The notes under the pieces are model-generated. The model saw only the letters and a list, made by a program, of their open reading frames with translations, was not told where the DNA came from and did no database searches. From IMG/VR virus record IMGVR_UViG_3300046463_000164: DNA of 64,000 bases. One strand, 5' to 3'. Every line of letters begins with the position of its first letter. Position 1 is the stretch's first letter. The DNA is from a virus. Positions 1 to 43,591 of the stretch are shown piece after piece. The position numbers and the translations under genes are program-made.

Positions 1-529
1 TTGATGCAGCTTTGACTATATTACTAATATTCCGCTTAGAATAATCCCTAATGGAATTTAGGTTAGATTTTCCAATCTTATCCTTATGCTCTTCCGACAA
101 CTTCCTACCTGACATCGAGTCAGATATTTTCTTTTTGGTTTCTTCAGAATGACTCTTACCAAAAAGAGGATTGTTTTCGCCGGTTGCCGCCTCAGACAGT
201 TTCTTTCGAGTTTCGGCTGAAGGATTCGAACAACCCTCTCCGCCGTCAGTTCCATTTGTTAACGGACCAAATCCCAAATCTCTGCGACCATATTCAGCAA
301 TCCAGAAAACTTCCCACATCTCAGCATCATCTGCCGACAAATGCATATTCAAGAATTCTACAAGGATATACTTACCTTCACGTATAGCCTTTCTGATCTT
401 CTTGTTTTTAAATGAATCTGGATTTCCGTCTTTGCCGCCAAGATGATCCCAAGCCCTTCTCTTAATACCCTTTCCTACATAAAATGGCTTGGGATCATCT
501 TCAATTCTAAGTTGATATACATAAAACAT
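1..529 (-). CDS. GIY-YIG homing endonuclease with NUMOD3 repeats (3' end runs off the window)
   Basis: Hand translation from ATG 529 (RBS GAGG): MFYVYQLRIEDDPKPFYVGKGIKRRAWDH...LTNGTDGGEG...GENNPLFGKSHSEETKKKISDSMSGRKLSEEHKDKIG; frame open to position 1; absent from the ORF track. Confidence 0.85.
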   Translation of the reverse strand, partial: MFYVYQLRIEDDPKPFYVGKGIKRRAWDHLGGKDGNPDSFKNKKIRKAIREGKYILVEFLNMHLSADDAEMWEVFWIAEYGRRDLGFGPLTNGTDGGEGCSNPSAETRKKLSEAATGENNPLFGKSHSEETKKKISDSMSGRKLSEEHKDKIGKSNLNSIRDYSKRNISNIVKAAS

Positions 530-547
530 ATTACCTCTTAAAATAAA

Positions 548-867
548 GAACTCATGATACGCCAGCCTGGAGCACACCTCGGGGTCAATTCAATGATCAC
601 CCACCACACTATACCCAGGATTTAAAAGATCGTTCAGACTTAATAACTTGAAAGTTGAGACTTAAACTTTAGAAATTTAATCTTTGAATCTTTAGCTTTA
701 ATCGTTGAACTTTAAGAGTATTTGTATAGTCCCTTTCGGGCCACTATATTAATTGTCCTTGCGAGGATAAAGGTCGCAGTTCAATAGTCGATTTTGGCTC
801 TCGCGGTTTAACGTCCAAGCGAGAAGGGACGCCGAAAGTTTTGAAGCGTTCAGCGTACCATGAGTTC
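548..867 (-). ncRNA. Putative ~320-nt structured ncRNA with an internal tandem-repeat tract
   Basis: Ends 851-867 and 548-564 form a 17-bp helix (GAACUCAUGGUACGCUG/UGGCGUAUCAUGAGUUC) whose three non-Watson-Crick positions are G-U only on the minus strand; internal hairpins UCUCGC/GCGAGA, UAUAGU-GG-CCC-GAAA-GGG-ACUAUA, CCUGG/CCAGG. Confidence 0.7.
629..714 (-). repeat. 12 degenerate tandem units of 6-8 nt, 11 starting YAA and the last GAA
   Basis: TAAAGTT CAACGAT TAAAGC TAAAGATT CAAAGAT TAAATTTC TAAAGTT TAAGTCT CAACTTT CAAGTTAT TAAGTCT GAACGAT. Confidence 0.75.
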
Positions 868-886
868 AGTTTTACTACAAAACTAC

Positions 887-1519
887 TTAGTCGGCCAGTT
901 CAATCTCAGTCCGAGCATTAGACTCGCTCAGGACGAAATCAACTTCCGTCACAAAATCTTCATACTCACGACGAAGCACCGCGATTTGATCCACAATCTT
1001 CTTCGGGTCCAAAAGTTTGGCTTCTTGCTCGCCCTTAACTGCCTTCGCAATCAGGTCGTGCTGCTCTGCCGTAACTTTGCCCTTATCGTTACCGTATGCC
1101 GCCATCACACGCTTTTCAACGTCAGCTTCAACACGAGCATTCTGGTTGTTAGCCTGAATCGTAGCGCTGTTATACTGCGCTTGTAGCGTATTGATCAGAC
1201 GCTCGGTGTACTGGATCGAACTCTTACGTTCAATAGCTTCAGCAACCGTCATCGTCGCGCCGCTGATCGAAACTTGTGTTTTCGAGTTAGCAACGATAAT
1301 AGCTCGCTTAATGGCATCACGGCGCTTGATCAAATCCCCAACTTGCTGGTATGACGCTTGAATAGTCTTTTCCAGTTCATCCTTCGAAACCGCAGCATTC
1401 AGCGGGACTTCCTTGCTACCTCGCACAACAGCAACATAGGTTCCTTGAGCGATCGCATTTTGAATACGGCTGTCAAGGGTCTTCAGTTCAGCCAAACCGC
1501 GCGTTACAGTAATCTTCAT
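887..1519 (-). CDS. Long alpha-helical coiled-coil protein, DIP1984/DUF6847-like
   Basis: N-terminal TRGLAELKTLDSRI, central RDAIKRAIIVANSKT...MTVAEAIERK, C-terminal LLDP...EVDFVLSESNARTEIE pattern. Confidence 0.6.
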   Translation of the reverse strand: MKITVTRGLAELKTLDSRIQNAIAQGTYVAVVRGSKEVPLNAAVSKDELEKTIQASYQQVGDLIKRRDAIKRAIIVANSKTQVSISGATMTVAEAIERKSSIQYTERLINTLQAQYNSATIQANNQNARVEADVEKRVMAAYGNDKGKVTAEQHDLIAKAVKGEQEAKLLDPKKIVDQIAVLRREYEDFVTEVDFVLSESNARTEIELAD

Positions 1520-1571
1520 ATTTTCCTTTCTTCTCTTCAGTATAGGTACTTAAACCCGTTAAAATTCAGCG

Positions 1572-1991
1572 TTAAACGACTTTTTTGCCCATCATCTTTA
1601 CGATCTCAGGATCGGAAACGACAACGTAATTCGATTTATGCATTGGCATCACAGTGAACTTACGTTCAGCCGCTTCAGCCTCTCGGCGATTATACTCTTC
1701 AACCCCGATTTCTTCAATCATTTGTTTACGCAACTCATACTTCTTATCCGAAGCTTGAGGCACCTCAGCAGGGCGATTAGGCTTAACCAATCGATCTGCA
1801 TGCATTGCTAGAGCACCGCTAATACCAGCGGCTGGATTACGATTACCAAAAGACGGTCGCATAGGTTTCGTTACTAGAGGTTTGGAGTGGCGTTCCAGGA
1901 GTTTATCCCATTCAGACGCCAACTCACGTTGCTTCGCATTCGGCTTACGTTTCTTCATACAACCATTAACGACGTTTGTTGAACCCACCAA
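1572..1991 (-). CDS. Hypothetical protein (T4-like phage family ending in MHKSNY)
   Basis: 139-aa ORF in the minus-strand gene run; true start may be the internal Met (MKKRKP). Confidence 0.6.
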   Translation of the reverse strand: MVGSTNVVNGCMKKRKPNAKQRELASEWDKLLERHSKPLVTKPMRPSFGNRNPAAGISGALAMHADRLVKPNRPAEVPQASDKKYELRKQMIEEIGVEEYNRREAEAAERKFTVMPMHKSNYVVVSDPEIVKMMGKKVV

Positions 1992-3198: not shown

Positions 3199-3275
3199 TG
3201 GCGCGCCGGAAAGGAATCGAACCCTCAACCTGGGGAGTAGAAATCCCCTGCTCTATCCAGTTGAGCTACCGGCGC
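3199..3275 (-). tRNA. tRNA-Arg(UCU)
   Basis: GCGCCGG acceptor, D-arm GCTC/GAGC, anticodon arm GGGGA-TTTCTAC-TCCCC, GTTCGATTC T-loop, encoded CCA. Confidence 0.95.
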
Positions 3276-3298
3276 TTCGTTTAACTTAACATACAGCT

Positions 3299-3327
3299 AT
3301 TATACCCGCATACTATGCTAAAGTAAA
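3299..3327 (-). promoter_or_regulatory. Sigma70-type promoter for the tRNA cluster
   Basis: TTTACT-N17-TATAAT with CATAGTA in the spacer. Confidence 0.8.
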
Positions 3328-3345
3328 GCGTTTACATCTGAATCT

Positions 3346-3516
3346 TTAGAAGCAGAACCAGCCGTTACATTTGATACACTTAACTCCACCGCCTGGTTGC
3401 GATACTTCTTCATGTTTGCAATTAGGGTCAGCGTCCCATAGTGCTAAATTGGGAAAATATTTGTTCGTGATTCTAGACAAATTCTCTTCAATAGGGTCTT
3501 TATCTCTTTGGGTCAT
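3346..3516 (-). CDS. Small Cys/His zinc-finger-like protein (56 aa)
   Basis: Hand translation MTQRDKDPIEEN...LWDADPNCKHEEVSQPGGGVKCIKCNGWFCF; fills the gap. Confidence 0.65.
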   Translation of the reverse strand: MTQRDKDPIEENLSRITNKYFPNLALWDADPNCKHEEVSQPGGGVKCIKCNGWFCF

Positions 3517-3991
3517 ATTCCACCACAGTTATTGATAACCTTGGGCTAGCACCGTTAATAATTCCTTCAATAGTTTCCCAATCGCCGCCAGCCAACCCAG
3601 CCCCGATCCTAGGAATTCCAACCAGTGCATTATCTTTATCCACATCTTTGTCTATAAAGAACCGAATTTGGGAATCCAGTCCAGCAAATACTTCTTTGAT
3701 GCTCTTATTCAGAACATCTTGATCCTCAATACCAGGATAGAACTGGGTGTAGGCATTTACAATTAGGCCGAACGCCGTCCATGCAGTAGTAAATGTACCT
3801 AGTTTATTCCTATCTCCATGTTTGCTATGCTTCACATCTTGACTAAAAGCTACGGGAAATTGCTTCGAAATCTGAGCAGCAATACCAGCTCCCATCGTAT
3901 GGAAACAGTTACAGCCGTGCACAATCGCATCAAATTCGCCATCTTTAAACAGCTTCAACAAATCGCCCTTCACAGTCTTAACTATCGGCAT
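3500..3991 (-). CDS. Macro domain (ADP-ribose/Appr-1''-p processing) protein
   Basis: KGDL, IVHGCNCFHTMGAGIA, PRIGAGLAGGDW motifs. Confidence 0.9.
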   Translation of the reverse strand: MPIVKTVKGDLLKLFKDGEFDAIVHGCNCFHTMGAGIAAQISKQFPVAFSQDVKHSKHGDRNKLGTFTTAWTAFGLIVNAYTQFYPGIEDQDVLNKSIKEVFAGLDSQIRFFIDKDVDKDNALVGIPRIGAGLAGGDWETIEGIINGASPRLSITVVEYDPKR

Positions 3992-4037
3992 ACTTCGCTC
4001 TATGTAAAATTCGAATAAAGAGATTATACCCTAATTT

Positions 4038-4793
4038 CTAGAACATAGAGAATAAATCAGCTGATTTCGCGGCTTCCTTTTCTGACTGGATTACTCGGAA
4101 TTCCTTGATCTTCTCAGCAAGCAAGAGCATGTAGTCACGACGATCACGCACAAATACTTGGGCCTCTGAAGCTTTCTCAACTGAGATAATGATCACCAGT
4201 TTCTCAGCTTTCAGACCATACAACTCTTCAAGCATTATAGAATAGCAGGTTGCCTGAAGGAAATAGTTGGTAATGAACTTAGCCAACTTCTCTTTCGTAG
4301 CAGTCTTAAAGTCGATGATAGCCAACTCACCCTTGTACTTGGCGATACAGTCAACTCGACCAGCAAGTCCCATCTTCTTAGACCACATAGGCAATTCAAG
4401 CCCATAGACATCATCGACGTGAATCCGCATCACGCGTTCAATCTGACGATACATGAATTGATAATCGCCGGCCTCTTCAGGCTTAGGATTATTCTTGAGA
4501 AGATATTCAAGTGCCAAGTGGACGCCGGTTCCGCGAGTTGTGCAACGCTCTGACTCAGCATGTGCCTTATCTAGACCCCCAAGCCTTTCTGCCCATCGTT
4601 CGAACCAGCCGTCATCCTTCTCAAGAGAAGCGAGGAAAGTGGTTACTGACGGATATCTTGAACCGTCTGGAGTTACATACAGACGGCCTGTGGGCGAATC
4701 TATATTATAGCAATGATATTCCTCTAGGAAACACTGCCGAAATTTCTTGTCGGCAGTATTCTTGCGAGCTTTTACAAGATCAAATGACGGCAT
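4038..4793 (-). CDS. PD-(D/E)XK exonuclease (Cas4-like phage family)
   Basis: YPSVTT, RGTGVH, AGRVDC, IIDFKT, YFLQATCY; C-terminal ADLFSMF tail. Confidence 0.85.
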   Translation of the reverse strand: MPSFDLVKARKNTADKKFRQCFLEEYHCYNIDSPTGRLYVTPDGSRYPSVTTFLASLEKDDGWFERWAERLGGLDKAHAESERCTTRGTGVHLALEYLLKNNPKPEEAGDYQFMYRQIERVMRIHVDDVYGLELPMWSKKMGLAGRVDCIAKYKGELAIIDFKTATKEKLAKFITNYFLQATCYSIMLEELYGLKAEKLVIIISVEKASEAQVFVRDRRDYMLLLAEKIKEFRVIQSEKEAAKSADLFSMF

Positions 4794-5094
4794 CAGGAAT
4801 ATACTTCAAACTGTAATATTTACCTTGCTTGTGAAAGTAGAAACGACCTTCCAGAACCCCACGTATCATATATTTGATATTACCTTCGAATTCTCCCTGT
4901 GCCATGTAGAAATTGCAACCATTACCATCCTTGAAAAGAGCTACATTGGAAGTATATTTCAGAATCTGATCAAACTCAAACCTACCTATGAACGGGCCAT
5001 TTTGTTCAAAATAAATGCTATCTCTAACATAGTCCGAATGTTTCATATTGCCGTCTTTATCGAACGGAACACTAATCTTTTTAATGACCGCCAT
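4780..5094 (-). CDS. Hypothetical protein
   Basis: 104-aa ORF overlapping its neighbours in the operon. Confidence 0.6.
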   Translation of the reverse strand: MAVIKKISVPFDKDGNMKHSDYVRDSIYFEQNGPFIGRFEFDQILKYTSNVALFKDGNGCNFYMAQGEFEGNIKYMIRGVLEGRFYFHKQGKYYSLKYIPDAVI

Positions 5095-5626
5095 TCTTCA
5101 CAATCTCCAAAACTTCGTCATAGTGGTAAGGGGCCATCAACCTATCCTTGCGGGTATCCACTCCAACATCCAGACGGTTGGGGAGTACACGGCACTCGTG
5201 GTGGGTGTCTCCATGCAAGTGGCCATGAAGATGGATCGTACCGTGTCGCATTTCTCGCCAGTTCTCGATAGGAAAGTGACACAATACTAGGTATTGATCA
5301 CCGATCTTGATATGGTCATAGTCCTTCATAGATGCAAAGTAACCGGACAGACTACGGAGAGTCTTGCCATCATGGTTGCCCATGATCAACTCGATATTGC
5401 CATTAAGGCGACCCAGTACTTGGGCTGTCTTGGCATAACTACCAAAGCTGACATCACCCAGATGATAAACCCTGTCATGAGGCTTAACTCTCCCATTCCA
5501 AGATTGGACCATCAGTTCCGTCATCTCATCTGCGTCTTTACCGGCTCTTGTGTCAGGACAAAACTCCTGGATTCGCTTATGAAAATAATGCGTATCGCTT
5601 GTGAACCAGGTATCATACAAATTCAT
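5081..5626 (-). CDS. Calcineurin-like metallophosphoesterase
   Basis: SDTH, LGD, GNHD, HFP, HGHLH motifs. Confidence 0.9.
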   Translation of the reverse strand: MNLYDTWFTSDTHYFHKRIQEFCPDTRAGKDADEMTELMVQSWNGRVKPHDRVYHLGDVSFGSYAKTAQVLGRLNGNIELIMGNHDGKTLRSLSGYFASMKDYDHIKIGDQYLVLCHFPIENWREMRHGTIHLHGHLHGDTHHECRVLPNRLDVGVDTRKDRLMAPYHYDEVLEIVKNGGH

Positions 5627-6546
5627 TTATCCTCCAGAAAGCCTCGGATGATATTGATCCGTGCTTGTTCATCTAATGTCAAAAACTCTGCCTTGTTCTC
5701 AAACAGGAAGTCGATCAGAGGGTAAAACTCCTCATCAATTCGCTGCTTAGCCTGATGATTGCTATCAGACAGAATACCTTCTAGCAACTTCTTCTCTCCA
5801 GCACGAGCTAGGAATTTGGTGATTAGATAATATGGAGACTTGATCTTCAAAGCCTTACCTGAGCTATTACCATATACCATAAATCCTTCGTGCTTGCATT
5901 CCTTGGCCATCTTCACAACGTCCGAGAAACGCATATTCAGATACGACTCAGGACGTTTACAATCCCAATGGAAGGCAAGGTGGTCCAATACACCCTCCAT
6001 AATAGAAACTGTTTGTCCATTGTAATATACGGTGCCGCCAATAAGCCAAGCGCCCAATTCTTCCTTGATGATATGCGGATCAGTTTCATCGCAAATTTCA
6101 AATATCAAGGTGCAAGGACCAAGCTTCTTGATCTGATTTTCATACTGACTTACATGCTTCTCTACAAGGTCAACAAAATCGCTATCCAAACTGCCAGTAG
6201 TAGAGTAGATGAGATCATCTGATAAATCTGGAGCATAAGTAGCAACTCCCATAAAGCCATTGACCTTACGGACTACAGTGCAAATCTCATCGCGATCAAT
6301 GTCTGTGCCGTTCTCATGATGATTGAACACCTTAGTGAACGGCTTAATGACAACATTGTAATCCTCATCTACTACCAAACCGCGACACTCATTCAAATAT
6401 GGGCTGAGATGCCAAAGGTTATCATAGAATACGCTGTTCTTATACTTGAGAACGAACAGACCGGGATATCGCTTGGACTCCTTCCGAGACACCAGCTTCG
6501 GATTGTTCTCCACAAACTTCTTCAGTTCCAGTCGGTCGATATGCAA
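5623..6546 (-). CDS. RNA ligase, Rnl1 family
   Basis: ECRGLV, motif I RKVNG, FEI, EGF, KIKSPYY. Confidence 0.85.
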   Translation of the reverse strand: MHIDRLELKKFVENNPKLVSRKESKRYPGLFVLKYKNSVFYDNLWHLSPYLNECRGLVVDEDYNVVIKPFTKVFNHHENGTDIDRDEICTVVRKVNGFMGVATYAPDLSDDLIYSTTGSLDSDFVDLVEKHVSQYENQIKKLGPCTLIFEICDETDPHIIKEELGAWLIGGTVYYNGQTVSIMEGVLDHLAFHWDCKRPESYLNMRFSDVVKMAKECKHEGFMVYGNSSGKALKIKSPYYLITKFLARAGEKKLLEGILSDSNHQAKQRIDEEFYPLIDFLFENKAEFLTLDEQARINIIRGFLEDK

Positions 6547-7003
6547 TTACTTTCTCCATAAATTCTTCGTGTGGCTCATAACGAGCCCGCATCTTGGCCA
6601 TAACATCTTCAGGAACGCCGTGAATACTACCATAGCCGTTATCCAACATACTGAATACCGCAATATCCTTGTTCAGCAGTTTAGCGAACCGGATATAGGG
6701 TTTAGCATCTTGGTACGACAGATTTGTGTTGGACACTATCACTGTCTCATCTTGAGCCAAGAAGGCTTCCGCCGTCTGTAGGCACCAACGATGTGCTCTG
6801 GATAGATTTTCGAATTCAAAGTTGTAAGAGCGGTCGGCATTACGATACCAGTACATATCCGCTTCAATATGAATACATCGATTAGCGCGAGCCAAATCCT
6901 TGGCCAGGGTTGATTTACCTGAGCCGGGAATACCGCGAATCAAAATCAGACAACCATCTTCAGCGGCGTGGTCTAAACCGCCGCTCACTTCATAATTTAT
7001 CAA
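6440..7003 (-). CDS. P-loop polynucleotide kinase-like protein (AAA_33)
   Basis: RGIPGSGKST, EAD, AHRWC, VSNT, HGVPE. Confidence 0.85.
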   Translation of the reverse strand: MINYEVSGGLDHAAEDGCLILIRGIPGSGKSTLAKDLARANRCIHIEADMYWYRNADRSYNFEFENLSRAHRWCLQTAEAFLAQDETVIVSNTNLSYQDAKPYIRFAKLLNKDIAVFSMLDNGYGSIHGVPEDVMAKMRARYEPHEEFMEKVIAYRPTGTEEVCGEQSEAGVSEGVQAISRSVRSQV

Positions 7004-39524: not shown

Positions 39525-40870
39525 AGATTGCAGATTTTATTGATAGTCAGTTTCGTGAGTATGCAAACTACGACAACGAGCGTAGCTTACCTCATATCAT
39601 GGACGGGCTGAAGACGACGCAACGTAAGGTTCTGAGCGCGTTCGTGGAGCATATTGGCTATTCGACTATCGTTTGTGATAAGGCCGGTATGCGAGCGGCT
39701 GACGTGACGAAGTATAAGCACGGCGCAACTTCGATGATCGGCGTATTGATCAACATGAACCAGGATTTTCCTGGTTCGAACAATATGCCTCTCTTTGAGA
39801 AGGAAGGTCAGTTCGGCACCCGCTTGAATCATAAGGCGTCGTCTGAGCGGTATATTTCTACCAAGCTTGGCGATACTTTCAAGAAGATGTTCGATCCTGA
39901 GGACAACTTCATCTTGGAAGAGCAGTTCGATGATGGTGATCGGATTGAGCCGCGTTTCTATATCCCGAAGCTGCCTATGCTGCTTATAAACGGCTCGGAT
40001 GGTACGGGTAATGGGTATGCCTCTACGGTCCTGCAGTACGATGCTAAGGACGTTAAAACGGCTGTAGAAGAGGTTCTAAAGACCGGTGTTGTGCAGACCC
40101 CGCTGACGCCGTTCCTTAAGGGTTACTATGGAGCGATCTCAAAGGATCATGCTAGTGGTCAGGTTGTGTTCGAAGGTCAGATTGAACGAGTCGGCGCAAA
40201 TAAGATCATCATTCACGAGTTGACCCCGAATCGTCAGCTTGCTGATTATAAGGCGATTCTGAATGCTCTGGTTATCGACAAGACAGGTCCGAATAAGGAT
40301 TTGCCTCCGTTCATCAAGGACTACGACAACGAATCGACTGAGGACGAATGGAAGTTTGTTCTTGACGTTCCGCGTAGTACGATGCAACTGTCTGATGAGG
40401 AACTGTTGGTGAAGCTCAAGCTGATCGAACGACAAACCGAAAATCTGACGGTTTGGTTGCCGAGCGGAAAGCTGAAGCGGTTCTCTAGCGTTGAGATGTT
40501 GATTCAAGAGTGGGTCGAACTTCGCTTGCGTTATTACGAAGTGCGCCGCCTAGATCAGATCGAACGTCTGAAGGTGGAATTGGATTGGTTGAATACAAAA
40601 GCCGCTTTCATCCGCTGGTGGAATAAGAATTCATCAGAGCTTGTAACTCTGAAGAAAGACGCCCTGAGGACTGCTATTGTAGTCCACGTAACTAAGAATG
40701 AGGATCAAATTGCTCTTTTACTTAACATTAGAATTAGCAACTTGGGGCTTGAAGAAGTGGAAGCTCTCACAAAGGAAATCGAGAAGGTAGAAGTTAAGGT
40801 CAAGACTCTGGAATCAACGACAAATAAGAAGATGATGTCGTCAGAGGTTAAGGCTCTGAAACTGGATTAA
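39521..40870 (+). CDS. 52: Type II topoisomerase medium subunit gp52
   Basis: DGLKTTQRK, YKHG..S, GQFG, SERYI (catalytic Tyr), EP.FY.P, LLING. Confidence 0.95.
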   Translation: MKIADFIDSQFREYANYDNERSLPHIMDGLKTTQRKVLSAFVEHIGYSTIVCDKAGMRAADVTKYKHGATSMIGVLINMNQDFPGSNNMPLFEKEGQFGTRLNHKASSERYISTKLGDTFKKMFDPEDNFILEEQFDDGDRIEPRFYIPKLPMLLINGSDGTGNGYASTVLQYDAKDVKTAVEEVLKTGVVQTPLTPFLKGYYGAISKDHASGQVVFEGQIERVGANKIIIHELTPNRQLADYKAILNALVIDKTGPNKDLPPFIKDYDNESTEDEWKFVLDVPRSTMQLSDEELLVKLKLIERQTENLTVWLPSGKLKRFSSVEMLIQEWVELRLRYYEVRRLDQIERLKVELDWLNTKAAFIRWWNKNSSELVTLKKDALRTAIVVHVTKNEDQIALLLNIRISNLGLEEVEALTKEIEKVEVKVKTLESTTNKKMMSSEVKALKLD

Positions 40871-40940
40871 AAGCATAGACGAAAGCACATAGTAGGCGTA
40901 TAATACTTTTACTATGTGCAGTACCTAACCGGAAATAGAA

Positions 40941-41162
40941 ATGGCAGATTTCAGTTCGATGCGCCCTAAACGTCAAGTGCCGCAGAAAGCAAATGTAAGG
41001 AAGTTTGTGTCCATTACACCGATGGTGGATGAGGATGGTAGCTATCTCGTCTTGCGTCGGTATAAGGAAAAAGAGAAAGTTGGCGAAGCTGTCCTTCATA
41101 TCGAGAAGGGCAACACGCCATCCGCAGTTCGTGAACAAGTTGAAGAATTTCGAAACCTTTAA
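40941..41162 (+). CDS. Hypothetical protein
   Basis: First ORF after promoter 40876-40904. Confidence 0.55.
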   Translation: MADFSSMRPKRQVPQKANVRKFVSITPMVDEDGSYLVLRRYKEKEKVGEAVLHIEKGNTPSAVREQVEEFRNL

Positions 41163-41175
41163 GGAAACCCCTAAG

Positions 41176-41859
41176 ATGTCTAAAGTTGTTAAGTTGTCGG
41201 CAGAAACTCTGCAAGTGTTGAAGATTGCATCTGGTATTAACAAGTCGCTGGCCTTCAAGGCGGGCAACGAGATCAAGACGGTTTCGGCAACCGGTTCGAT
41301 CGTCATGGAAGCAACGATCACTGAAACCTTCCCGGCTGACTTTGCGGTCTATGAACTGCCGAAGCTGCTTGGTGTTCTGGCGCTGCCGTCGTTCAAGGAT
41401 GCTGAGCTGGTGTTTGAAGACGGCGTTGATACGCATATGATCATCAAGGCCGGTTCGTCCAAGATCAAGTATTTCTACACCCCTGAAGACTTCGCCAAGC
41501 ATCCGGGCAAGTCTATCGTTCTGCCGAAGGTTGACGTTGAAGTCAATCTCCAGAAGGATACGCTGGAAGCATTCGAGAAGGCAGCTGCCGCTCTGGGCCA
41601 CAAGTTCATGAAGTTCGCCGTGAAGGACAAGGAATTGTTCCTGGTCGCGACGACTCCTGAACTGGATACGTCCAACGACTATATTGTCGATATGGGTGCT
41701 CAAGATTCGGACGACTTCGAAGCGATGGTGAAGCTCGAAAATCTGAAGCTGGTGCCGGGCGATTTCAACGTCCAACTCCTGAAGATGGGTGGCCGTGGTA
41801 TTAGTAAGTGGTCGCATCTGACCCGTAAAATTAACACGTTCATCGGTCTGGAGCTGTAA
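41176..41859 (+). CDS. 45: Sliding clamp gp45
   Basis: KLSAETLQVLK..SGINKS, FP.DFAVYEL..LL; start at AAGGA-ATG 41176. Confidence 0.92.
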   Translation: MSKVVKLSAETLQVLKIASGINKSLAFKAGNEIKTVSATGSIVMEATITETFPADFAVYELPKLLGVLALPSFKDAELVFEDGVDTHMIIKAGSSKIKYFYTPEDFAKHPGKSIVLPKVDVEVNLQKDTLEAFEKAAAALGHKFMKFAVKDKELFLVATTPELDTSNDYIVDMGAQDSDDFEAMVKLENLKLVPGDFNVQLLKMGGRGISKWSHLTRKINTFIGLEL

Positions 41860-42895: not shown

Positions 42896-43194
42896 TGCAA
42901 ACAATCCTAGATCAAATTACGTGGTCTCATGCAGCGGCGTTGTATTTGGGATTGTGCTTCGGTATCGCTTTGTGGTGGATCGGTCTTTGTGCGCATAGCG
43001 ACATATTCAAGGGTCCGGATCATAAGTTTGGATATAACTACAAATCGGCGTTCAGTTGGATTCTGCTTCTGTTCTTTGCTTGTCCCTTGTTGAATCTAGT
43101 AACCCTGACGGTGACTTTGTGGACTATGATGATCAGCCGGTTAGATAGATACAAAGAGAATCTGAGGAAGAAAGAATATGCCCAGTCTGTTTGA
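42892..43194 (+). CDS. Hypothetical membrane protein
   Basis: Two hydrophobic segments. Confidence 0.6.
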   Translation: MMQTILDQITWSHAAALYLGLCFGIALWWIGLCAHSDIFKGPDHKFGYNYKSAFSWILLLFFACPLLNLVTLTVTLWTMMISRLDRYKENLRKKEYAQSV

Positions 43195-43591
43195 ATGGCT
43201 CGACAAGATCAACACCGGAAAAGATATTGCGCTGAATGAGGATGATCCCTACAAAGATTATCCCACCTTCCAAATTCTTCAAGGGCTGAGTCAGAATCTG
43301 GATACGATCCTGCTAGCCAATGAGATGAATAAACGTCCAGGGTTATCTAAGGAAATGCAATTCAAATTTCTAGATAAGTCCATTATCAAGAAGAAGCGGT
43401 TTGGTAAATGGGCTAAGGTTGAGGAAGAAGCCAATAAGGCTGATATCGAAGTTGTGTCTGAGTTCTACCAAGTTAATCGGAATAGAGCAAAGGAATATCT
43501 GAAGCTGATTAACCCGACTGAGTTGGATTATATGCGCAAGCGAGTCAGCAAGGGCGGGTCAGATACTATCGGTAAAGGACGTAAGAAATGA
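43178..43591 (+). CDS. 62: Clamp loader small subunit gp62
   Basis: LFEWL..IN, DTILLANEMN, KKRFGKWAK, A.EYL. Confidence 0.9.
   Translation: MPSLFEWLDKINTGKDIALNEDDPYKDYPTFQILQGLSQNLDTILLANEMNKRPGLSKEMQFKFLDKSIIKKKRFGKWAKVEEEANKADIEVVSEFYQVNRNRAKEYLKLINPTELDYMRKRVSKGGSDTIGKGRKK

What the first reader, a model, noticed from the sequence alone, without database searches (positions are those of the whole stretch)
548..1519. Coiled-coil protein gene followed by a closed ~320-nt RNA with 12 tandem ~7-nt repeats: candidate new protein/ncRNA system
Seen: about 20 nt after the stop of the 210-aa helical protein, a minus-strand element begins whose ends (851-867 and 548-564) form a 17-bp helix. Its three non-Watson-Crick positions are G-U only on the transcribed strand, which points to RNA-level selection. 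Inside are several hairpins (one GAAA-capped) and an apparently unpaired 86-nt tract of 12 units of 6-8 nt, 11 starting YAA (TAAAGTT CAACGAT TAAAGC TAAAGATT ...). Established: periodic short single-stranded repeats are how ring oligomers such as TRAP bind RNA, one repeat per subunit. Inference: the DIP1984/DUF6847-like protein oligomerises and wraps the tract to form an RNP. Its position at the end of a cluster with RNA ligase, kinase, phosphoesterase, macrodomain and tRNA suggests a role in RNA repair or counter-defence, loosely analogous to Ro60/Y RNA.
Basis: partly seen in the sequence, partly recalled or inferred. Interest (0 to 1): 0.88.

Follow-up and report, generated by a model that had tools for sequence, protein, structure and literature searches.

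The report
Heptad-repeat knotted RNA with partner protein
Directly behind a small helical-protein gene this phage encodes a 320-base, doubly knotted RNA with about a dozen 7-base repeats. The same gene-plus-RNA pair recurs in phage T5, many other large phages, Bacillus-type bacteria and cyanobacterial tRNA gene arrays, yet matches no catalogued RNA or protein family.

Summary
Window 548-867 (minus strand) is a real structured RNA. It has a 17-bp closing helix, two pseudoknots, a covarying 3' stem-loop module and a 92-nt tract of UYAAAGN heptads.

It is one member of a large family. The 3' module was found once, on the gene's strand, just downstream of the 210-aa gene's homologue in 52 of 53 sources searched (the window plus viral loci, T5 included) and in 76 of 80 bacterial loci. 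Helices keep pairing while their sequences change completely.

Rfam 15 has no match. The protein has no Pfam family, only a DIP1984-like fold (PDB 3KDQ).

The GIY-YIG endonuclease gene downstream is a later insertion; relatives lack it.

A VIPR-style programmable guide is also unlikely, because the heptads are as conserved as the rest of the RNA.

Best reading, inferred: a dedicated protein-RNA particle linked to tRNA arrays and RNA repair.

Earlier agents of this scan found the same family on other DNA. I found no paper describing it.

The parts
887..1519 (-). Gene for the 210-aa helical protein. It belongs to the T5.085 / PHROG 1491 family and has a DIP1984-like fold. The invariant motif is MTVAEAIExK.
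   Evidence: ORF. PHROG 1491 at 4.5e-63. No Pfam or NCBIfam family. AF2 model pLDDT 87. 3KDQ at Z 11.5. The family holds 3517 clusters at 50% identity with E<=1e-3.
548..867 (-). The whole structured RNA, from the closing-helix 5' strand to its 3' strand (320 nt).
   Evidence: The full length is conserved in L001 and L002.
851..867 (-). P1 closing helix, 5' strand. It ends at the conserved junction YG|AA(A)AC.
   Evidence: Anchored at the same junction in most of the 61 distinct elements; a few were mis-anchored. Mean 15.5 pairs against a null of 6.6. Positions 2-6 are 91-100% paired with 4-6 pair types.
548..564 (-). P1 closing helix, 3' strand. It starts inside the invariant GGCUG.
843..849 (-). 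Pseudoknot 2, 5' strand (ACGCUUC). It pairs with 574-580.
   Evidence: Partner-specific runs average 6.06 bp against 4.30 when partners are shuffled (highest shuffle 4.81 of 200), and 84% of elements have 5 bp or more. L002 shows a compensatory U-G to G-U swap.
574..580 (-). Pseudoknot 2, 3' strand (GAGGUGU), in the 3'-side internal loop of the 3' module.
798..833 (-). H-type pseudoknot 1. Alpha stem is 827-833 with 810-816. Beta stem is 819-825 with 798-804. An A-rich loop 3 lies at 805-809.
   Evidence: The same topology begins 17-19 nt after P1 in most of the 35 non-redundant lineages listed, each with a different sequence, and 26 of 39 elements scored z>2 against shuffles. Read by eye.
716..797 (-). 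Variable hairpin region, including the GAAA-capped hairpin at 725-748.
   Evidence: This is the least conserved part, at 47-62% identity to L002 and L001. In L013 this region holds a whole tRNA.
624..715 (-). Heptad-repeat tract: about 12 units with consensus U-Y-A-A-A-G-N.
   Evidence: Periodicity z=20 at lag 7. PWM: U 78%, Y 82%, A 92%, A 92%, A 77%, G 68%, N; 4-12 units per element with a median of 9. The tract is as conserved as the core modules.
563..623 (-). 3' module: AAAUCC, stem S1 (614-619 with 566-571), hairpin S2 (599-602 with 582-585, loop ending AUUG), and the invariant GGCUG (563-567).
   Evidence: Alignment A4 and model R1. S1 is 86% paired; covariation score 0.473 against 0.147 shuffled, with 0 of 500 shuffles as high.
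2..529 (-). GIY-YIG / NUMOD3 homing-endonuclease gene. It is a secondary insertion just 3' of the RNA and is not part of the module.
   Evidence: NUMOD3 at 6.9e-19. Absent in L001 and L002, where a hairpin follows the RNA. The full 228-aa gene, and the resumed flank after it, are seen in L089.

Best explanation
**What it is.** Window 548-867 (-) is the RNA half of a conserved two-part module, and the 210-aa gene upstream is the protein half.

**Shown**
- The RNA is a closed, doubly pseudoknotted fold of about 320 nt. It presents a roughly 90-nt loop of about a dozen UYAAAGN heptads between a 5' pseudoknot domain and a 3' stem-loop module.
- RNA and gene are inherited together as a single-copy pair in very diverse large phages, T5 included. 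The same holds in Bacillota chromosomes and in cyanobacterial long tRNA arrays.

**Inferred**
- The RNA is transcribed as the 3' end of the protein's own mRNA. In Bacillus and Paenibacillus an intrinsic terminator follows it.
- It is probably released by cleavage at or beyond the long P1 helix.
- It is then bound by its neighbour protein, with dimers occupying the evenly spaced heptads. This would give a particle of defined length.

**More weakly inferred.** The particle acts on tRNA supply, translation stress or RNA-damage repair. The basis is the repeated placement of the module in tRNA arrays and beside RNA ligases.
For: - **RNA structure.** P1 shows partner-specific pairing in 61 distinct elements. 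S1 covaries, with 0 of 500 shuffles as high. Pseudoknot 1 sits at a fixed offset with different sequences. Pseudoknot 2 is partner-specific.
- **Strand.** G-U pairs are valid only on the gene's strand.
- **Heptads.** Family-wide 7-nt periodicity and a PWM. The tract is under the same constraint as the core, 71-96% identity between relatives against 47-66% for the variable middle in typical pairs.
- **Linkage to the protein.** R1 hits once per locus, on the + strand, just after the gene in 52 of 53 sources searched (the window plus viral loci) and in 76 of 80 bacterial loci. Five whole genomes or records each gave one match, the one next to the gene.
- **Stand-alone module.** In Paenibacillus rhizovicinus and Bacillus altitudinis the gene and RNA are followed by a terminator, in a non-phage context. 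The locus is syntenic across species.
- **Self-association.** ipSAE 0.49 against a best control of 0.25. That mark was reached by 20 of 30 proteins solved as homo-pairs and 1 of 23 solved as single chains; the counts hold only roughly here because four copies and my own alignment were used. The three runs agree in at least 76% of contacts and the partner's pLDDT is at least 80.
- **Possible co-variation.** Protein clades with DFxLSESN have G at heptad position 6 in 40-80% of units. Clades with DTxL(V/S)xSN or DAxLQxSN have 0-43%.
- **tRNA and repair context.** 57 of 80 phage loci have tRNAs within 3 kb, and the cyanobacterial loci mostly hold 16-31 tRNAs. RtcB is adjacent in Desulfogranum. An Rnl1-type ligase and a kinase lie in this window's cluster.
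Against: - No experiment or read data could be obtained, so there is no proof of a discrete transcript or of binding here.
- The protein family is near neutral (median pI 6.2, net charge about -1) and has no recognisable RNA-binding domain.
- The co-variation between protein motif and heptad position rests on about three clades, so it is confounded by ancestry.
- Most Bacillota copies have no tRNA or repair gene nearby. The functional context may therefore reflect where mobile DNA carries the module, not what the module does.
Confidence: 0.55

Rival explanations
1. The RNA works without binding its neighbour protein. The two are co-transcribed only. The single-stranded A-rich heptad loop would sponge or scaffold a host factor, such as ribosomal protein S1, RNase E, Hfq, or a tRNA-processing or repair enzyme.
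For: The protein is near neutral and has no known RNA-binding domain. The RNA has an elaborate fold of its own. Large RNAs next to tRNA genes in phages (ROOL, GOLLD) form RNA-only assemblies (PMC12286853, listed).
Against: The pairing is strict: one gene to one RNA, in fixed order and spacing, across phages, Bacillota and cyanobacteria, and in five whole genomes or records. That is hard to explain by shared transcription alone. The heptad consensus also shifts with protein clade.
Confidence: 0.25
2. The protein forms a TRAP-like closed ring of about 12 subunits, and the heptad tract wraps around it with one repeat per subunit.
For: There are 4-12 evenly spaced repeats, with a median of 9. The tract's ends are brought together by P1 and pseudoknot 2. 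The protein is predicted to self-associate.
Against: The modelled interface uses the same residues on both copies (19-41, 46-79, 93-126, 162-178). That is a two-fold dimer contact, not the head-to-tail contact a ring needs. The fold is a long helical bundle like 3KDQ, unlike the TRAP beta-sandwich. The repeat number varies threefold between members.
Confidence: 0.1
3. A toxin-antitoxin or abortive-infection module of the type III kind. The helical 'septicolysin-like' protein would be harmful, and the repeat RNA would hold it inactive.
For: It is a compact, autonomous protein-plus-repeat-RNA pair found on phages, mobile tRNA arrays and chromosomes.
Against: The gene order is protein then RNA, with no terminator between them. 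The repeats are 7 nt, not about 35 nt. The protein has no nuclease fold and no PADLOC hit. The module is vertically inherited at a syntenic housekeeping locus across Bacillus pumilus-group and Lysinibacillus species. It is also an early gene of strictly lytic phages such as T5.
Confidence: 0.06
4. A programmable, VIPR-like guide RNA. Variable positions of each repeat would spell a non-contiguous target.
For: VIPR (bioRxiv 10.64898/2026.04.26.720920) shows that phages use tandem short-repeat RNAs with a pseudoknotted tail and a multimerising protein.
Against: No position is hypervariable. The tract is 92-96% identical between close relatives, nearly the same (94-99%) among the T5-like pairs compared, and always as conserved as the core. 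Only position 7, and the C/U choice at position 2, vary within a unit. The protein is all-helical, not an RRM/RAMP. There is one RNA per genome, not an array.
Confidence: 0.03
5. A DNA-level element (iterons, an origin or a packaging site), or part of a group I intron or homing-endonuclease cassette.
For: A GIY-YIG endonuclease gene abuts it. There is a weak Intron_gpI hit of 14.6 bits, E=1.
Against: Relatives keep the element without the endonuclease gene. The upstream ORF is complete at 210 aa, like its thousands of homologues. The intron hit is far below the 50-bit gathering score. Compensatory changes and strand-specific G-U pairs indicate selection at the RNA level.
Confidence: 0.01

Closest known systems
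VIPR systems: Vipr protein with vrRNA (bioRxiv 10.64898/2026.04.26.720920, 2026)
   Same: Mostly phage- and prophage-encoded. A tract of 9-16 short tandem repeats sits next to a conserved structured part with a pseudoknot. The RNA is encoded beside a small protein that co-purifies with it.
   Different: vrRNA repeats are 5 nt (YNNGG) with hypervariable NN. The RNAs are about 100 nt and usually come in arrays. The protein is a RAMP/RRM, and the particle is a programmable DNA binder. Here the repeats are 7 nt and conserved, the RNA is about 320 nt, closed and single-copy, and the protein is a DIP1984-like helical bundle.
TRAP (MtrB) on the trp leader, and HutP on hut mRNA, in Bacillus (from my own knowledge)
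   Same: An oligomeric protein reads evenly spaced short single-stranded repeats. HutP sites also have a 7-nt period (UAG plus 4 nt).
   Different: Those are cis-acting attenuation sites in mRNA leaders, read by beta-rich ring or hexamer proteins. Here the repeats lie inside a free-standing knotted RNA that sits 3' of the gene, the core word is AAAG, and the protein is helical with a dimer-type contact.
Ro60 (Rsr) with Y RNA / YrlA, as in the rsr-yrlBA-rtcBA operon (Rfam RF02553; from my own knowledge)
   Same: An RNA closed by a long helix of its own ends is encoded next to its protein. It is linked to RtcB and RNA repair, occurs in bacteria and phages, and some members carry tRNA-like inserts (L013; Desulfogranum RtcB).
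   Different: There is no Rfam YrlA or Y_RNA hit. The protein is not a TROVE/Ro60 ring. Y RNAs have no heptad tract or double pseudoknot.
ROOL, GOLLD and phage T5 RNAX: large structured RNAs of unknown role beside phage tRNA genes
   Same: They are phage-borne, lie next to tRNA clusters and have ornate conserved folds of unknown function (PMC12286853; T5 rnaX annotation).
   Different: There is no sequence or structure match. Those RNAs have no dedicated adjacent protein gene and no short tandem repeats.
CsrB / RsmZ sponges for CsrA (from my own knowledge)
   Same: One RNA carries many copies of a short protein-binding word and titrates a dimeric protein.
   Different: The GGA words there sit in hairpin loops at irregular spacing, and the protein is encoded elsewhere. 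Here the words are in a strict 7-nt register in one loop, and the candidate partner is encoded in cis.

Membership tests
Any Rfam 15 family | Covariance-model score at or above the family's gathering threshold | tested here: not met
   Whole window: only a tRNA. Window 1-1600 at E<=10: only chance-level hits. Seven loci searched at gathering threshold (Bacillus, Lysinibacillus, cyanobacteria, Roseburia, Brevibacillus, T5): only tRNAs.
Group I intron | Catalytic core P3-P9 scoring above 50 bits and interrupting a host gene | tested here: not met
   14.6 bits, E=1. The upstream ORF is complete, like its homologues. The element persists without the endonuclease gene.
VIPR vrRNA | YNNGG 5-nt repeats with hypervariable NN | tested here: not met
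   The units are UYAAAGN with a 7-nt period. The tract is 92-96% identical between close relatives and never more variable than the core.
VIPR vrRNA | Partner protein is a RAMP (RRM core, G-loop, thumb) | tested here: not met
   The AF2 model is a helical bundle with a small sheet. The only fold match that stands out is 3KDQ.
TRAP-type RNA target | 9-11 (G/U)AG triplets with 2-3 nt spacers, bound by an 11-mer beta-sandwich ring | tested here: not met
   The repeat word and spacing differ. The protein fold is helical. The modelled interface is two-fold symmetric.
Ro60 / Y RNA (YrlA) | TROVE-domain Ro60 orthologue next to an RNA matching RF02553 or Y_RNA | tested here: not met
   No such Rfam hit. 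No TROVE hit for the protein.
Type III toxin-antitoxin (ToxIN, CptIN, TenpIN) | Repeats of about 34-36 nt upstream of, and separated by a terminator from, an endoribonuclease toxin gene | tested here: not met
   The 7-nt repeats lie downstream of the gene. There is no nuclease fold and no PADLOC hit.
tmRNA / tRNA | tRNA-like domain detectable by ARAGORN | tested here: not met
   ARAGORN finds only tRNA-Arg at 3199-3275 in the window.
DIP1984 family (PDB 3KDQ), for the protein | Significant sequence match to the family | tested here: inconclusive
   The profile against PDB gives E 0.055 to 3kdq_A, with the motif MT(V/L)A(E/D)A aligned. No Pfam or NCBIfam model reaches threshold. The language-model neighbour is DUF6847, at 0.87 only.
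DIP1984 family (PDB 3KDQ), for the protein | Same fold over the whole chain | tested here: met
   VIA-align Z 11.5, rmsd 6.4 Angstrom, 151 of 152 residues aligned, next hit Z 8.0. Foldseek gives E 3.8e-3 and probability 1.00. Caveat: helical bundles often reach Z values in this range.

The most novel reading that the evidence does not exclude
This is a previously undescribed, ancient ribonucleoprotein shared by bacteria and large phages. A DIP1984-fold protein would polymerise as dimers on a heptad code inside a doubly knotted RNA. The particle would be a travelling accessory of horizontally mobile tRNA gene arrays (cyanobacterial L-arrays and phage tRNA clusters). It would act on tRNA or ribosome damage during translational stress or phage-host conflict, as a counterpart of Ro60/Y RNA built from unrelated parts.
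Probability: 0.3. Interest if true: 0.9.

Novelty: categorically new. Interest (0 to 1): 0.82.

Why it matters
The RNA family and its protein partner are very widespread but sit in no RNA or protein catalogue. I found no paper describing them.

- **Breadth.** The protein family has 3517 clusters at 50% identity. It occurs in model phage T5, in Bacillus, Pseudomonas, Vibrio and Salmonella phages, in Bacillus pumilus-group and Lysinibacillus chromosomes, and in cyanobacterial tRNA arrays.
- **Tractability.** Because T5 and cultivable Bacillus species carry the pair, ordinary genetics and biochemistry can address it at once.
- **If the pair is a particle.** It would add a new way for a protein to read RNA, through a 7-nt register. 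It would also add a new player to the poorly understood biology of supernumerary tRNA arrays, phage tRNA clusters and RNA repair.
- **Annotation.** The common 'tail fiber protein' label on this gene family appears unfounded.

Tried and rejected

No expression evidence could be gathered, and read laying was never used.
- No whole genome is held for the window.
- Megablast of window 1-1600 against phage records gave no match. Sensitive blastn of the element found only short A/T-rich repeat words.
- An exact 24-nt core word found only the two close relatives.

**Protein searches**
- Pfam, NCBIfam and PADLOC gave no family for the protein.
- Foldseek against PDB gave nothing at E<=1e-3. Its best row was 3KDQ, at E 3.8e-3.

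**Literature**
- Searches on T5 ncRNA, gene names, structured phage RNAs, DIP1984/septicolysin and tRNA L-arrays found no description of this pair.
- The L-array papers mention embedded hypothetical genes, rtcB and HNH endonucleases, but not this gene or RNA.

**Ideas considered and dropped**
- The motif TAAGTAGTTTT occurs only once in the window, so there is no evidence for a repeated signal there.
- Heptads as complements of tRNA anticodon loops, or as T-loop look-alikes. The resemblance is loose: UUAAAAG against UYAAAGN is off by one base, and position 2 is C in only 38% of units. I could not test this.
- Heptads as codons. Stop codons occur in all frames.
- A hairpin formed by the tract, as in the RNAalifold result. 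It is not conserved in distant members.
- The ring model, the VIPR-type guide, a type III TA, DNA iterons and an intron. See the rival explanations.
Full report
**1. What is in the window**

On the minus strand a complete 210-aa ORF (887-1519, stop TAA at 887-889) is followed by 358 nt without a credible ORF. After that comes a gene starting at 529 that runs off the window. This downstream gene is a GIY-YIG/NUMOD3 homing endonuclease (NUMOD3 6.9e-19).

Positions 851-867 pair with 548-564 as 17 ungapped pairs. Three of them are G-U wobbles, which would be mismatches on the other strand. The stretch folds better than all 100 shuffles (z = -4.06).

Rfam 15 gives nothing for the element. The only gathering-level hit in the 64 kb is tRNA-Arg at 3202-3275. 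A 14.6-bit Intron_gpI hit (E = 1) is noise.

**2. The endonuclease gene is an add-on**

Two IMG/VR relatives, with protein identity 93% (L001) and 73% (L002), keep the whole element but lack the endonuclease. In them the RNA is followed by a hairpin, a 62-aa basic ORF and a tRNA array.

L089 is the same phage as the window and extends beyond the window's start. It shows the 228-aa endonuclease gene, then the same 62-aa ORF, then tRNA-Cys, Met, one of unassigned identity, Ile and Ser. The flank resumes inside the former hairpin. This rules out the intron or endonuclease-cassette reading.

**3. It is a large RNA family tied to one protein family**

The protein matches 744 phage records at full length, among them T5 gene T5.085. 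It is often mislabelled 'tail fiber protein' through PHROG 1491.

An nhmmer profile of the three close RNAs hit the same place downstream of the gene in about 40 distant loci listed before the output was cut. Reading those loci showed the same parts everywhere.

A covariance model of the 3' module (R1) then gave these results:
- It hit once, on the gene's strand, just after the gene in 52 of 53 sources searched (the window plus viral loci). The window has only this one copy.
- It did the same in 76 of 80 bacterial genome loci found with the protein profile: Brevibacillus, Paenibacillus, the Bacillus pumilus group, Lysinibacillus, Lachnospiraceae and filamentous cyanobacteria.
- Five whole genomes or records each gave one match, the one beside the gene.

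The protein family comprises 3517 clusters at 50% identity with E<=1e-3, almost all 200-215 aa long.

**4. Architecture and covariation**

From 5' to 3' the RNA has the following parts.
- **P1, the closing helix (14-21 bp).** It is anchored at a conserved junction, YG|AAAAC on one side and GGC|UG on the other. Mean length is 15.5 ungapped pairs against 6.6 for decoy partners. Positions 2-6 are 91-100% paired with 4-6 pair types, against about 45% when partners are shuffled.
- **Pseudoknot 2.** The 6-8 nt just after P1 pair with the 3'-side internal loop of the 3' module. Mean run is 6.06 bp against 4.30 for shuffled partners, and the highest of 200 shuffles is 4.81. Compensatory examples include AUUGUC/GACAAU against AUUGCC/GGCAAU, and AAAGAA/UUCUUU against AAAGAU/AUCUUU.
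- **Pseudoknot 1, H-type.** It starts 17-19 nt after P1 and has an A-rich third loop. The topology is constant while the sequence differs between lineages: window CGUCC/GGACG plus UUCUCGC/GCGAGAG, T5 ACCUCG/CGAGGU plus CAGCGGU/ACCGCUG.
- **Variable hairpins.** There are one to three of them. L013 carries a whole tRNA here.
- **The heptad tract.**
- **The 3' module.** It reads (UC)GAUAAAAUCC, then stem S1, then hairpin S2. S1 is 86% paired, with covariation 0.473 against 0.147 and 0 of 500 shuffles as high.
- **The invariant GGCUG**, which leads into the P1 3' strand.

Section 'parts' gives the window coordinates of each piece.

**5. The heptads**

Over 41 non-redundant tracts, base identity is periodic at 7 nt, with z = 20, 16 and 10 at lags 7, 14 and 21. 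A refined weight matrix gives U(78%)-Y(82%)-A(92%)-A(92%)-A(77%)-G(68%)-N. Spacing is 7 nt in 152 of the successive-unit intervals counted, with 39 at 8 nt and 22 at 6 nt. Elements carry 4-12 units, with a median of 9.

Distant members have no complementary CUUUG words, so the tract must be mostly single-stranded.

Between relatives the tract is as conserved as the pseudoknot and 3' modules, and in most pairs far more than the variable middle. Each unit is therefore under purifying selection and there are no hypervariable positions.

**6. The protein**

There is no Pfam, NCBIfam or PADLOC family. The AF2 model (pLDDT 87) is a long helical bundle with a small sheet.

The only structure that stands out is DIP1984 of Corynebacterium diphtheriae, PDB 3KDQ:
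- profile E 0.055, with the invariant MTVAEA motif aligned
- Foldseek E 3.8e-3
- VIA-align Z 11.5 over 151 of 152 residues, with the next hit at Z 8.0

The function of 3KDQ is unknown.

A four-copy co-fold gave ipSAE 0.49 against a best control of 0.25. That mark was reached by 20 of 30 proteins solved as homo-pairs and 1 of 23 solved as single chains, and the counts hold only roughly here. The runs agree in at least 76% of contacts and the partner's pLDDT is at least 80. The contact uses the same residues on both copies, so it is a two-fold dimer contact. This supports self-association. It gives no support to a ring.

The family is near neutral, with median pI 6.2. Conserved basic positions are R7, K13, R18, R67, K71, K99 and K148.

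**7. Context**

The module is stand-alone in Bacillota:
- In Paenibacillus rhizovicinus and Bacillus altitudinis the gene and RNA are followed by an intrinsic terminator among ordinary metabolic genes.
- The locus is syntenic in all 7 further Bacillus pumilus-group loci compared and in 14 of 23 Lysinibacillus-clade loci compared. This points to vertical inheritance and not to a selfish cassette.

Elsewhere the module travels with tRNA genes and RNA ligases:
- 57 of 80 phage loci have tRNAs within 3 kb.
- The cyanobacterial copies lie inside long tRNA arrays, most with 16-31 tRNAs in the locus. These are the 'L-arrays' shown to be induced under translational stress (PMC8421152). That paper notes embedded hypothetical genes and rtcB nearby but does not describe this pair.
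- In Desulfogranum the gene follows rtcB.
- In this window the module closes a block that includes an Rnl1-type ligase, an AAA_33 kinase, a macrodomain protein and tRNA-Arg.

**8. Interpretation**

Shown: a real, widespread, uncatalogued structured RNA, genetically locked to one protein family.

Inferred (about 0.55): the two form a particle in which protein dimers occupy the heptads. A hint of co-variation supports this. Protein clades with DFxLSESN have G at heptad position 6, while DTxL.. and DAxLQ.. clades mostly do not. This rests on about three clades.

More weakly inferred: a role connected with tRNA supply, translation stress or RNA repair.

Rivals:
- A VIPR-type programmable guide (bioRxiv 10.64898/2026.04.26.720920) is disfavoured by the conserved tract, the helical protein and the single copy.
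- A type III toxin-antitoxin is disfavoured by gene order, repeat length, fold and synteny.
- DNA-level and intron readings are excluded.

**9. Relation to earlier notes of this scan**

After most of my analysis I looked up earlier notes. Other agents had reached the same family from other genomes: T5-like phages, Bacillus phages and others. They called it a heptad-repeat, doubly knotted RNA with a partner protein.

Their 'doubly knotted' wording led me to look for pseudoknot 2, which I then verified myself. One note (e1-222571) carries a later check: 'seen 94/100, bold reading 1/100'.

These are unverified AI notes. I do not count them as independent evidence.

The following may be additions here:
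- the L-array association in cyanobacteria
- synteny in Bacillota
- the explicit test against VIPR
- the dimer-type contact
- the endonuclease insertion in this window

Noticed in passing
window 2-529 (-); L089:4015-4701: A free-standing GIY-YIG/NUMOD3 homing-endonuclease gene (228 aa) has been inserted exactly at the 3' edge of the RNA, into the hairpin that follows the RNA in L001 and L002. Relatives lack it. Homing endonucleases are also reported beside tRNA arrays in T4 (SegB) and in cyanobacterial L-arrays (PMC8421152).
   Followed up: partly
window 444-497 (both strands): A near-perfect inverted repeat of about 17 bp (UGAUCCCAAGCC...GGCUUGGGAUCA) lies inside the endonuclease coding region. 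It produced spurious miRNA hits in Rfam. It could regulate the endonuclease's translation or be a target-site remnant.
   Followed up: no
L089:4737-4925; L001:4030-4218; L002 about 4047-4235: A conserved 62-aa, very basic (Lys/Arg-rich) ORF lies between the RNA and the tRNA array in this phage lineage. It has no PHROG or PADLOC hit. It could be a second RNA-binding partner.
   Followed up: partly
window 879-889; L001:4213-4223; L002 about 4233-4243; L089 about 4921-4931: The word TAAGTAGTTTT overlaps the stop codon both of the 210-aa gene (just before the RNA) and of the 62-aa ORF (just before the first tRNA). It may be a processing or punctuation signal ahead of RNA genes. It occurs only once in the window.
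   Followed up: partly
L013:3700-3800: One GC-rich family member carries a complete tRNA gene inside the RNA's variable hairpin region, between the pseudoknot domain and the heptad tract.
   Followed up: partly
L148 (Phormidium chromosome) and L121 (Calothrix sp. PCC 7716), whole loci: In cyanobacteria the gene-RNA pair is embedded in long tRNA gene arrays, with 23-27 tRNAs in the 12.6-kb loci. These appear to be the horizontally mobile L-arrays known to respond to translational stress.
   Followed up: partly
L085:8091-11214 (Desulfogranum japonicum): The protein gene lies just downstream of rtcB. The RNA after it starts normally (P1 5' strand, heptads) but lacks the 3' module, apparently because a transposase-like gene on the other strand cuts it off.
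   Followed up: partly
window 3199-7003 (-): Upstream block on the same strand: tRNA-Arg(UCU), a macrodomain protein, a PD-(D/E)XK-like protein, a 181-aa protein without a Pfam hit, an Rnl1-type RNA ligase, an AAA_33 kinase-like protein and UvsY. It looks like a tRNA/RNA-repair set. I did not analyse it further.
   Followed up: no
L083:5569-6287 (T5 40848-41566): T5 carries another annotated 'stable RNA with unknown functions' (rnaX, 719 nt) at the head of its tRNA cluster. It is separate from the RNA studied here, which is unannotated in T5 at about 43150-43495.
   Followed up: no
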